This document shows, piece after piece, positions 29,792 through 35,491 of a stretch of DNA of 64,000 nucleotides. How positions within the stretch are numbered: position 1 is the stretch's first letter; every line of letters starts with the position of its first letter. The notes under the pieces are model-generated. The model was not told where the DNA came from. It saw nothing but the letters and a program-made list of their open reading frames with translations, and did not search any database. The stretch spans positions 22,784,001 through 22,848,000 of the forward strand of contig CP086569.2 in the NCBI GenBank assembly GCA_009914755.4. Reading direction: 5' to 3'. The DNA is from the human T2T-CHM13v2.0 reference genome, Homo sapiens. The position numbers and the translations under genes were made by a program.

Positions 29792-30044
29792 CTAGATAAA
29801 ATTCTCATTTCCATAACATTGCAATAAATTCAAATGTGGCAGTGGACTCTAGAGCGTGATTCTTGAAACACTAAGGAGTGGGTGTTTTTAGGAACTGGAC
29901 TAGTGGGTTACCAAGGCTGTGATTTGAGTCATGAGGAGACTTCTACCCATACATGGGCCCCACAGCAGAGAGAACTGGCTCCACAATTCCAGGCTCAAGC
30001 TTCAGTGTCTGCACTGAAAAGAAAAGAAAAATAAATATCTATAA
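29792..30044 (+). mobile_element. possible ERV internal 3'-end fragment with a PPT-like tract (30015-30035), upstream of the first LTR copy
   Basis: The sequence immediately 5' of the first LTR copy ('cactgaaaagaaaagaaaaataaatatctataa') is homologous to the PPT-containing sequence 5' of the second copy ('cactgaagcaaagttcaaaaggaaagcaaattactttac'). Confidence 0.35.
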
Positions 30045-30362
30045 CGTCTCTTCTTCTCTGAAACATTAATTATGACTATGTTTCCCAATGCTTGTATTTA
30101 GTAAGATTTGAAGCTTACTGTTTTTTTTTTGTCTTTTCAATGCAGCTACAAGGCTACAAGCTATGCAAGGCTAAAGTTATGCTAACTCAACAGTTATGCT
30201 ATAAATTATGTAACCTGTCATTGTCAAATTAGCTTCTGTAGTTCTGCTTTTGTAATTTGGCTTACAAATATCCCCCTCAGTCTTTGTTCAATGCTCAGCA
30301 TTTTTGGATATAAGTCTGCTGAGCCAGGGCACCTAAATACATCCTCCTATTTCCCCATATGA
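30045..30362 (+). mobile_element. ERV LTR copy 1 (about 320 bp; family not identified)
   Basis: About 85% identical over about 310 bp to 35184-35491. Shared strings include 'ctctgaaRcattaattatgactatgtttMccaatgcttgtattt...cagtctttRttcaatRctcagcMtttttggatataag...cacctaaataMatcctcctRtttccccatat'. Confidence 0.6.
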
Positions 30363-33300: not shown

Positions 33301-35183
33301 TTCTTTTATATCTGCTTAGCCCCAGTTAGTCACCCTATATTTGCATTTCAATAAAACAAATAAGTTGTTCAACTCACCTGGGCCAGGCTCCCGCAAGTTC
33401 AAAGACTCTCCTACAGTCTTTAGGGAAGCACTGACCTTGAAGCCTACAACCTGCCAAATGTTAACTGTGCCTTGTTGCAGTATGTGGATGACCTTCCTCT
33501 AGCAGCCCCAACCCAGGAGGACTGTTATCAAAAAACTCAAGACCTCCTCCATCTCCTATGAAAAACAGGCTAAAATTATCTTTTAAAAAAGGACCAATTA
33601 TTCTTAAAAATGTCAAATATGTAGGTTTCATAGTAAGCCATGTGGAATGCCAGCTTGGCCATAAGCAGAAACAGGCCGTTTGTACACTCCTGACACAAAC
33701 CACTAGGCATTACATTAAAAAATTCTTAAAAGAAGAAAAATTCCACCATATCTAAATCATAAATTTTTCACTGATGGCTAAGCCATTATATAATATTACA
33801 AAAGGGGTAAAAACGAAACCCTCCTCTGGCAAACTAAACAGCAAATATCATTTAAAAAAATCAAAAAAACCCTTAACTCAAGTCCCAGCCTTTGGTCTGC
33901 CAAATGTAACTTAGCCTTTCTTTCTGTACCTGCATAAATGAAAAGAAATGGCTATGTGGTTCTTAACTGAAATTATAAAATTATAGCATTGTCCAGTCAA
34001 ATACTAATCTAAACAATTAGACTCTGTGGCACTAGGATGGCCTCCTTGCCTTAAGGCATTAGCCACCACTGCCTTGCTAATGCAAGAGGATAACACACTT
34101 ACTTTGAGACAGCAGCTAACAGTCCATGTGCCACACTCAGTCAAAACTTTGATGAACAAATAAGCCATCATTAGTTGTCAAATCTGAGAATAACGCAGTA
34201 CCAAGGACTTCTATATGAAAACCCTTACATTACTTAAAATACAGCAAACAACTTAAGCCCAACCACCCTGCTCCCAGTCAAATTTGATGCTCCCCTCCAT
34301 AACTGTGTCTAAACAGTGGATCACGTATTTGCTGAACCAGGAGATCTTACAGATCAATCCCTCAAAAACCCAGATGTTGAATACTTCATAACTGAAAGAG
34401 TTTTGAGCTAGAAAAAAATCCAACAAGCCGAGTATGCAGTGGTAACATTAAACTCAATGATAGAAGCTCAATCTTTGCCTACTGGAACATGAGACCAAAA
34501 GGCAAAATTAATAGACCGAACAAGAGCCCTTTTGCTGCAAAAGAAAAAAAGGTCAATATTTAAACACATTCTAAATATGCTTTTACCACACTACATGTTC
34601 ATAGAACTATATATAAAAAGAAAATTTCTTAACAACTGGAGGCAAATAAATAAAGTGGACAGAAAAAATCCTACAGCTCTTAGCAGCTGTATATGCTCCA
34701 GAAAAAGTGGCAATAGTGCATTATCTGGAACACCAAAAGGCAGGGAAGTCAAAAGCCAAAAGAAACAGGAAAGCTAACACTTTCCCCACATAACCTTGAT
34801 ATAAAAAAGCACCCAAAAAATGATGCCCACCCTCTACTCATACTACATAGCCCCAAAACAACATAGCCAGGCCCACTGCTACTCAGTTAATAGCTCTAAC
34901 TAAATGTCAACCTGTGCCAAAAGAAGAAAACATGCTTTCCCATAAAGAATAAAATGATACTAATGCCTTCGATTAAATTTATCCTATAAAATGATTTTTT
35001 AAAAAAACAGAAAAATTTGGCAAGACAAGGGTTCAAATGAAAAGAAAACATGTTTTTCTCTGTGTAGCTATCTCACTCCAAGACAGTTATAAAATAACAC
35101 TGTCTAAAAAGTTGAGGCCAAGGGAATGGGTCACAAATACCCTACACTGAAGCAAAGTTCAAAAGGAAAGCAAATTACTTTAC
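30363..35183 (+). mobile_element. gammaretrovirus-like (class I, ERV1) internal region, internally deleted; pol RT remnant at about 33380-33700
   Basis: Plus-strand translations around 33381-33560 read 'QLTWARLPQVQRLSY', 'FKDSPTVFREAL' (+1 frameshift) and '[29 protein letters not shown]'. These are colinear with MLV RT '[22 protein letters not shown]...[27 protein letters not shown]'. Downstream 'NVKYVGFIVS' matches 'QVKYLGYLL'. A PPT 'aaaaggaaagcaaa' lies at 35161-35174, immediately 5' of LTR copy 2. Confidence 0.65.
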
Positions 35184-35491
35184 TGTCTCTCCTTCTCTGA
35201 AGCATTAATTATGACTATGTTTACCAATGCTTGTATTTCGTAAAATCTGTATGTTCCTGTTTCTCTTTCAACCTAGCTGCAAAACCCAGCTATGCAAGGC
35301 AAGAAGTTATGCAAGTCAACAATTATGCTGTAAATTACATAACTGTTCATTGTATAATTAGTTGCTTTAGGTCTGCTTCTGTAAGTTTGCTCATAAAAAC
35401 CCTGCTCAGTCTTTATTCAATACTCAGCCTTTTTGGATATAAGCTCACTGAGCTGGTGCACCTAAATAAATCCTCCTGTTTCCCCATATCA
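35184..35491 (+). mobile_element. ERV LTR copy 2 (3' LTR of the ERV1 provirus remnant)
   Basis: See copy 1. It begins 'tgtctctcc' directly after the PPT and ends '...ccccatatca'. Confidence 0.6.

What the first reader, a model, noticed from the sequence alone, without database searches (positions are those of the whole stretch)
29792..35491. Gammaretrovirus-like provirus remnant with two about 320-bp LTRs and an extra PPT-bearing internal fragment upstream of the 'first' LTR
Two direct repeats (30045-30362 and 35184-35491, about 85% identical) bracket 4.8 kb that contains clear RT motifs (QLTW.[21 protein letters not shown]) in the plus orientation, and a PPT sits directly 5' of the second LTR. 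Unexpectedly, the about 40 bp 5' of the first LTR is also homologous to the PPT region ('cactgaaaagaaaagaaaaataaat' vs 'cactgaagcaaagttcaaaaggaaagcaaatt'). A simple 5' LTR should instead be flanked by host DNA and a TSD, and I find no TSD. This suggests a tandem or recombinant provirus: the 3' end of an upstream provirus, then a shared LTR, then a second internally deleted provirus, then the LTR. Alternatively the LTR is longer than I have placed it. The LTR divergence (about 15%) implies an old element. I could not name the family from memory.
Basis: partly seen in the sequence, partly recalled or inferred. Interest (0 to 1): 0.5.

Follow-up and report, generated by a model that had tools for sequence, protein, structure and literature searches.

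The report
Old gammaretrovirus-like provirus, LTRs mis-bounded

Summary
The provirus is real. Two direct repeats bracket decayed gag, protease, RT and RNase H on the plus strand. The stitched pol matches gammaretroviral Pol (E 3e-147) and MLV RT structures (E 2e-104). Integrase and env are absent.

TG...CA limits fit 30015-30391 and 35148-35520, about 375 bp each and 81% identical (K2P 0.21, roughly 25-50 Myr).

A tRNA-Arg(ACG) primer-binding site (16/18, unique in the window) lies 4 nt after the 5' LTR. This fixes that LTR's right end.

It stops at 30009, and nothing further upstream matches the interior, a third LTR or any retroviral protein.

The tandem-provirus reading is therefore not supported.

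No TSD or LTR-adjacent PPT can be shown. The Repbase/Dfam family could not be named with these tools. Ordinary finding, low interest.

The parts
30015..30391 (+). 5' LTR (377 bp; TG...CA). Homology with the 3' copy is detectable from 30009. Boundaries are uncertain by about 6 nt on each side.
   Evidence: Gapped alignment 30009-30384 vs 35142-35513. Anchored extension test. Three-way alignment of 3' ends with L002. 81.3% identity over aligned sites.
30009..30045 (+). Here it is read as the first part of U3.
   Evidence: 75.7% identity to 35142-35184. 18/3000 shuffles and 12/391 matched genomic 45-mers reach the anchored score. As a free local match it is only marginal, 79/2000.
30149..30182 (+). 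16-bp x 2.1 tandem duplication in U3 (counterpart in the 3' LTR at 35291-35328)
   Evidence: Tandem Repeats Finder
30200..30206 (+). TATAAAT, candidate TATA box (TGTAAAT at 35329-35335 in the 3' LTR). Assigning it as the promoter is inference.
   Evidence: Read directly from the sequence. Conserved as tataaat in the L002 copy.
30396..30413 (+). Primer-binding site TGGCCAGTCAGCCAGGAG, complementary to the 3' end of tRNA-Arg(ACG), 4 nt after the LTR
   Evidence: 16/18 ungapped match. It is the only site in the window, on either strand, reaching 15/18 against any of 14 PBS types. The tRNA sequence was verified in PMC7757669.
30414..31160 (+). Untranslated leader
   Evidence: Lies between the PBS and the gag ATG. 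It has no copy elsewhere in the window.
31161..32399 (+). Decayed gag. It starts MGRELSQ at 31161. The N-terminal part is 31259-31726, capsid is 31858-32061, and a nucleocapsid zinc-knuckle remnant QCV*WKRK... lies at 32358-32399.
   Evidence: Motif coordinates. tblastn with relatives. Pfam Gag_p30 E 1.3e-7, above the gathering score.
32564..32800 (+). Protease (retroviral aspartyl protease), frameshifted
   Evidence: tblastn. Pfam RVP E 1.3e-4, 22.7 bits against a cut-off of 20.7.
33003..34160 (+). Reverse transcriptase with connection domain. About 35 codons are missing after NTPLL (33228-33240). It contains QLTWARLPQ, FKDSPTVFREAL and LLQYVDDL.
   Evidence: Pfam RVT_1 E 4e-13. MLV/XMRV RT structures E 2e-104.
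34175..34778 (+). RNase H domain, the last recognisable coding segment
   Evidence: tblastn with relatives ends at about aa 753 of 1198. Matches to PDB RNase H chains E 1e-16.
34779..35147 (+). Unassigned 3' interior where integrase and env should be. It includes a purine-rich tract at 35106-35126. No significant protein similarity.
   Evidence: Small-search-space tblastn gave best E 0.037. No DNA repeat elsewhere.
35148..35520 (+). 3' LTR (373 bp; TG...CA), with AATAAA at 35465-35470 (AATACA at 30336-30341 in the 5' LTR)
   Evidence: The signal was read from the sequence.
29470..29792 (-). Alu element in the upstream flank (not part of the provirus)
   Evidence: Sequence read. Similarity to other Alu copies.
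35540..35712 (-). Partial Alu 20 bp downstream of the 3' LTR, itself interrupted by the 3' end of an L1 from about 35713
   Evidence: Sequence read. L1 ORF2 RVT_1 at 37867-38469.

Best explanation
A single germ-line integration of a gammaretrovirus-like (class I, ERV1-type) retrovirus that has since decayed.

Layout:
- 5' LTR at 30015-30391, then a tRNA-Arg(ACG) primer-binding site at 30396-30413 and a roughly 750-nt leader.
- gag from 31161, then protease, reverse transcriptase and RNase H, ending at 34778.
- About 370 bp of unassignable sequence, then the 3' LTR at 35148-35520.
- Integrase and env, roughly 3 kb, are missing. At least 19 in-frame stops and several frameshifts break pro-pol, so nothing is expressed as protein.

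It is the 5' end of U3, copied to both ends of the provirus by reverse transcription like the rest of the LTR.

Shown: the repeat limits, the PBS, the gene order, the missing genes and the divergence.
Inferred: the U3/R/U5 subdivision, the exact terminal nucleotides, and the age of about 25-50 Myr.
For: - Repeat limits are 30009-30384 vs 35142-35513. The left extension is significant when anchored in register and ends abruptly.
- Upstream sequence 29793-30008 has no homology to the pre-3'-LTR region or the interior, even with cheap gaps.
- There is no third LTR in the window and no retroviral protein hits outside the interior.
- The PBS is a 16/18 match to tRNA-Arg(ACG), unique in 64 kb, and sits 4 nt after a CA.
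- A third copy of the LTR family (the tail of L002) shares the same 3' end.
- Stitched pol matches gammaretroviral Pol at E 3e-147 with 98% coverage and MLV RT-RNase H structures at E 2e-104.
- Pfam Gag_p30, RVP and RVT_1 all score above their gathering thresholds.
- Full-length relatives align only up to the end of RNase H.
- LTR K2P distance is 0.214, and CpG count is 26 observed against 214 expected.
- From general knowledge, U3 starts in MLV and many HERV LTRs are purine-rich (TGAAAGACC..., TGTGGGGAAAAG...). A representative HERV LTR printed in PMC4724089 begins tgaagtaaaaggaa.
Against: - No purine tract directly abuts TG 35148. The nearest is 35106-35126, about 21 nt away.
- No TSD supports these ends; the best is GCAC/ACAC, 3 of 4, which is chance level.
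- No significant terminal inverted repeat was found.
- The left extension is less conserved (75.7%) than the core (83.9%) and is A-rich. As a free local match it is only marginal, 79/2000.
- No independent family copy covering the LTR 5' end could be obtained, so the consensus LTR start is unknown.
Confidence: 0.8

Rival explanations
1. Tandem or recombinant provirus. In this view 30009-30045 is the PPT-proximal end of an upstream provirus, the LTR at about 30046-30391 was shared, and the upstream provirus was later almost entirely deleted.
For: Tandem proviruses sharing a central LTR do exist, for example HERV-K 7p22.1a/b, whose coordinates overlap by one LTR (PMC3228705).
Against: Homology stops at 30009/35142. 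29793-30008 does not match the 360 bp preceding the 3' LTR or any interior sequence. There is no third LTR in the window and no retroviral coding similarity upstream. The reading needs an extra deletion with a breakpoint only about 36 bp from the LTR. The other ERV remnant in the window (dUTPase ORF 19330-19734) is on the opposite strand and of a different class.
Confidence: 0.05
2. Purine-rich coincidence. The LTR starts near 30046/35185 (TGTCTC.. / CGTCTC..), the A/G-rich run at 35149-35174 is the true PPT region, and the A-rich run at 30017-30040 is unrelated host DNA that happens to align.
For: As a free local alignment the extension is weak: 79/2000 shuffles and 2.4% of genomic 51-mers score as well. 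3% of composition-matched genomic 45-mers reach the anchored score. A-rich tracts are common in primate DNA.
Against: The anchored, in-register test gives 18/3000. The non-A-rich CTGCACTGA / CTACACTGA block (8 of 9) lies at the far end of the extension. In the 3' copy 10 nt (ttactttac plus one more) still separate the purine run from TG 35184, so this model gains no adjacent PPT either. No TSD fits.
Confidence: 0.1
3. Copy-specific extended LTR from aberrant plus-strand priming. Plus-strand DNA synthesis started upstream of the normal PPT/U3 junction, so PPT-region sequence was copied to both ends of this particular provirus and integrated from a TG further out.
For: This would give exactly the observed pattern: the same extra A/G-rich segment at the left edge of both LTRs, ending at a TG, with nothing retroviral beyond it. 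The mechanism follows from the established model of reverse transcription, which is inference rather than a test.
Against: It cannot be told apart from a normally longer LTR without other copies of the family. It needs an unusual event where none is needed.
Confidence: 0.05

Closest known systems
Murine leukaemia virus and other gammaretroviruses; class I (ERV1) endogenous retroviruses of primates
   Same: The order is LTR-PBS-gag-pro-pol. RT-RNase H aligns over nearly the whole MLV/XMRV p80 chain. It has a Gag_p30 capsid, gag starting with MG, one nucleocapsid zinc-knuckle remnant, a YVDD active-site motif, and an LTR starting TGAA....
   Different: It has no integrase or env, multiple stops and frameshifts, a 35-codon deletion in RT, an Arg rather than Pro/Gln primer, and no demonstrable 4-bp TSD or adjacent PPT.
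HERV3 (HERV-R, Repbase HERV3/LTR4) and other Arg(ACG)-primed class I HERVs in Vargiu et al. 2016 (PMC4724089)
   Same: The same primer type: TGGCGAGCCAGCCAGGAG is the PBS of taxorder 10230 (HERV3) chains, including the chr7:64.45 Mb provirus. Same retroviral class.
   Different: No LTR similarity to the two Arg-primed representative sequences that could be compared. This provirus's PBS string and LTR blocks do not occur in the stored supplements. Similarity to LTR4 or the HERV3 interior was not tested.
Tandem proviruses such as HERV-K(HML-2) 7p22.1a/b (K108L/K108R)
   Same: A provirus whose 5' LTR would be preceded by the 3' interior of another copy.
   Different: The documented case has three LTRs and two full interiors. 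Here there are two LTRs, one interior, and only 36 bp of ambiguous sequence.

Membership tests
Retroviral provirus (endogenous retrovirus) | Two LTRs in direct orientation flanking the interior | tested here: met
   30009-30384 vs 35142-35513, BLAST E 4e-75
Retroviral provirus (endogenous retrovirus) | tRNA primer-binding site just 3' of the 5' LTR | tested here: met
   16/18 to tRNA-Arg(ACG), unique in the window, 4 nt after a CA
Retroviral provirus (endogenous retrovirus) | Polypurine tract directly 5' of the 3' LTR | tested here: inconclusive
   Purine-rich tracts lie at 35106-35126 and 35149-35174, but neither abuts a supported LTR start
Retroviral provirus (endogenous retrovirus) | gag, pro and pol in that order on one strand | tested here: met
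Retroviral provirus (endogenous retrovirus) | Target-site duplication of 4-6 bp flanking TG...CA ends | tested here: inconclusive
   126 chance-level candidates. The best TG..CA pairings match only 3 of 4. This is expected after about 20% divergence.
Class I / gammaretrovirus-like ERV (ERV1) | Pol and Gag closest to gammaretroviruses | tested here: met
   Pol E 3e-147 to gammaretrovirus-type Pol. MLV/XMRV RT E 2e-104, against foamy/spuma-type RT at about 1e-12. Gag_p30.
HERV3 (HERV-R) group | Arg(ACG) primer-binding site | tested here: met
   This feature is shared with other groups, so it is not sufficient.
HERV3 (HERV-R) group | LTR4-type LTRs and HERV3-type interior | not tested
   No LTR4/HERV3 sequence was compared. 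The provirus is absent from the stored part of the RetroTector tables.
Tandem provirus (LTR-int-LTR-int-LTR) | A third LTR and a second interior upstream of the shared LTR | tested here: not met
   No third LTR in 64 kb. No interior homology or retroviral protein similarity upstream of 30009.
A named Repbase/Dfam LTR family | Match of LTR and interior to a family consensus | not testable with these tools
   No Dfam or RepeatMasker library is available. Collection scans returned only this locus plus one partial second copy.

The most novel reading that the evidence does not exclude
The 36 bp at 30009-30045 are not normally part of this family's LTR. They would be a genuine copy of PPT-proximal interior sequence sitting upstream of a 5' LTR, a footprint either of mis-primed plus-strand synthesis during the original infection or of a collapsed tandem array.
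Probability: 0.1. Interest if true: 0.3.

Novelty: already known. Interest (0 to 1): 0.1.

Why it matters
It matters little. This is a typical fossil class I endogenous retrovirus of the kind that fills primate genomes and that RepeatMasker annotates routinely. The useful outcomes are corrected coordinates, the primer type (Arg-ACG), the finding that integrase and env are missing, and removal of an apparent structural anomaly. If the 36-bp segment were truly non-LTR, it would be a small curiosity about reverse-transcription or recombination errors preserved in a fossil.

Tried and rejected
1. Pfam on raw three-frame translations. Frame-stitching solved this.
The conclusions rest on retrieved relatives and PDB matches.
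3. 3' LTR split by the Alu/L1 insertion and continuing downstream: rejected, because the leader 30380-31150 has no second copy.
4. Both upstream flanks weakly resembled the pol motif PPDRWLSN (E 0.004-0.18 with 49 related queries). This suggested longer flank homology, but gap-tolerant DNA alignment was at chance, 116/500.
5. Alternative LTR start at the PPT-adjacent TG at 35127, paired with 29976 across an 18-nt indel: 10/15 identity is at chance in an unbiased comparison, 506/1000.
6. Terminal inverted repeats as a way to choose the LTR start: not above shuffles.
7. TSD scan: uninformative.
8. First guesses of a Leu or Ser primer were replaced by Arg(ACG) after systematic scoring.
9. Scans for other family copies. 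Viral contigs (2 scans) and genome contigs (2 scans) gave nothing. The metagenome scan gave two contigs of this same locus and one chimeric or other-locus contig.
10. The two Arg-primed HERV representatives from PMC4724089 share only the PBS with this element. This element's strings are absent from that paper's stored supplements.
11. Rfam: no family in the window.

Full report
**Setting.** The window is primate-type DNA. The finding is flanked by a minus-strand Alu at 29470-29792 and by a partial minus-strand Alu at 35540-35712. That Alu is itself interrupted by the 3' end of a minus-strand L1. Two metagenome contigs reproduce this locus at 99.95% identity, presumably as host contamination.

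**The repeats.**
- A gapped local alignment of the two ends gives 30009-30384 against 35142-35513, with 297 matches in 385 columns. BLAST gives E 4e-75 for the core, and there is no further copy in the 64-kb window.
However, the repeats continue past those coordinates on both sides.
- On the right, a three-way alignment that includes a third copy of the family places the end at ...CA 30391 / 35520. That third copy is the tail of contig L002, 85% identical to the 5' LTR. 30388 / 35517 is an alternative end.
- With TG...CA limits of 30015-30391 and 35148-35520, the LTRs are 377 and 373 bp and 81.3% identical. K2P distance is 0.214 from 33 transitions and 34 transversions over 361 sites. That corresponds to about 49 Myr at 2.2e-9 per site per year, and less at faster rates.
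- CpG is depleted to 26 observed against 214 expected, as expected for old methylated DNA.

**The primer-binding site.**
- Four nucleotides after CA 30391 lies TGGCCAGTCAGCCAGGAG (30396-30413).
- I scored it against the complements of 14 tRNA 3' ends. It matches tRNA-Arg(ACG) at 16 of 18 positions without gaps.
- It is the only site in the whole window, on either strand, reaching 15/18 for any of the 14.
- I first typed the tRNA from memory. PMC7757669 prints the same sequence and its complement, TGGCGAGCCAGCCAGGAG.
- This independently fixes the right end of the 5' LTR and shows that what follows is a genuine proviral interior.

**Coding content.**
- Raw translations gave only weak Pfam hits because of frameshifts. 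Frame-stitching guided by tblastn resolved this.
- gag starts MGRELSQ at 31161. Its N-terminal part is 31259-31726, the capsid is 31858-32061 (Gag_p30, E 1.3e-7), and a zinc-knuckle remnant sits at 32358-32399.
- Protease is at 32564-32800 (RVP, above threshold).
- RT is at 33003-34160 (RVT_1, E 4e-13). About 35 codons are lost after NTPLL at 33228-33240.
- RNase H is at 34175-34778.
- The stitched pol finds gammaretrovirus-type Pol proteins at E 3e-147, with 38% identity and 98% coverage. It aligns along almost the whole MLV/XMRV RT-RNase H chain at E 2e-104.
- Full-length relatives with integrase, and one with env, align only as far as the end of RNase H. A small-search-space tblastn of 34760-35147 finds nothing significant. 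Integrase and env are therefore absent.
- At least 19 in-frame stops lie within the pro-pol alignments. No ORF on either strand exceeds 153 aa, and that one is a spurious LTR-to-Alu frame.

**The disputed upstream segment.**
- As a free local match this is marginal: 79/2000 shuffles, and 2.4% of genomic 51-mers score as well.
- Tested as an in-register leftward extension from the undisputed LTR body, it is significant. Only 18/3000 shuffles and 12/391 composition-matched genomic 45-mers reach the score, and the extension ends at 30009/35142.
- So the homology is real and about 36 bp long, and then it stops.
- The 216 bp further upstream (29793-30008) do not match the 360 bp before the 3' LTR or any of the interior, even with cheap gap extension.
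- A weak shared resemblance of both flanks to the pol motif PPDRWLSN did not survive that test.
- There is no third LTR and no retroviral protein similarity outside the interior.

**Interpretation.**
- A documented tandem provirus, HERV-K 7p22.1a/b, has three LTRs and two interiors (PMC3228705). None of that is present here.
- The tandem reading would need an additional deletion ending 36 bp from the LTR.
The LTR begins about 30 bp earlier than drawn, at TG 30015 / 35148, and the A/G-rich run is the start of U3.
- Purine-rich U3 starts are usual in gammaretroviruses and HERVs (general knowledge). A representative LTR printed in PMC4724089 begins tgaagtaaaaggaa.

**What remains open.**
- No purine tract directly abuts TG 35148.
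- The TSD scan is uninformative.
- Terminal inverted repeats are not above chance.
- A tempting alternative start at the PPT-adjacent TG 35127, paired with 29976, is at chance level.
- I could not obtain independent copies covering the LTR 5' end. Two minority readings therefore cannot be excluded: a pure A-rich coincidence, and a copy-specific extension from mis-primed plus-strand synthesis.

**Family.**
- The Arg(ACG) primer is that of HERV3 (HERV-R) chains in the RetroTector survey (PMC4724089), but other groups also use it.
- Two Arg-primed representatives from that paper share only the PBS with this element.
- This provirus's strings are absent from the stored supplements.
- Naming the Repbase/Dfam family needs RepeatMasker.

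**Verdict.** This is an ordinary, ancient, integrase- and env-less class I endogenous retrovirus, with LTR limits corrected to about 30015-30391 and 35148-35520. The apparent anomaly is best explained by mis-placed LTR boundaries.

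Noticed in passing
window 19330-19734 (minus strand): A 134-aa ORF matching Pfam dUTPase (E 2.5e-20) with the GVIDSDYNGEIQIV motif. It appears to be a remnant of a second, unrelated, betaretrovirus-like (class II) ERV about 10 kb upstream on the opposite strand. 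No LTR pair was found in 12000-29500.
   Followed up: partly
window 1872-7016 (minus strand): Several ORFs of 150-212 aa (1872-2450, 2719-3180, 3727-4365, 6480-7016) with a reiterated roughly 11-residue 'PWTQ.E' pattern. They have no Pfam family, and GC skew is raised there (0.24). This may be one large repetitive exon or a decayed tandem array.
   Followed up: partly
L002 1-1270 (ERZ781270 NODE_35957, coverage 1.6): The contig is 394/395 identical to window 29822-30216. It then continues as a different copy of the same LTR family (85% identical to the rest of the 5' LTR) and runs into unrelated DNA. It is either a chimeric low-coverage assembly through the LTR or another locus. It shows the LTR is a repeated family.
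   Followed up: partly
window 30149-30182 and 35291-35328: Both LTRs carry a 16-17 bp tandem duplication (about 2 copies) in U3, reminiscent of enhancer repeats in retroviral U3 regions.
   Followed up: no
window 35540-38469 and 49479-51502: A nested insertion just downstream of the provirus: a partial Alu interrupted by a minus-strand L1 (3' end at about 35713; ORF2 RT at 37867-38469, RVT_1 E 7.5e-17). A second L1 with ORF2 pieces lies on the plus strand at 49479-51502.
   Followed up: no
window 18411-18660: A 125-bp unit repeated twice in tandem at 90% identity, close to the dUTPase-bearing ERV remnant.
   Followed up: no
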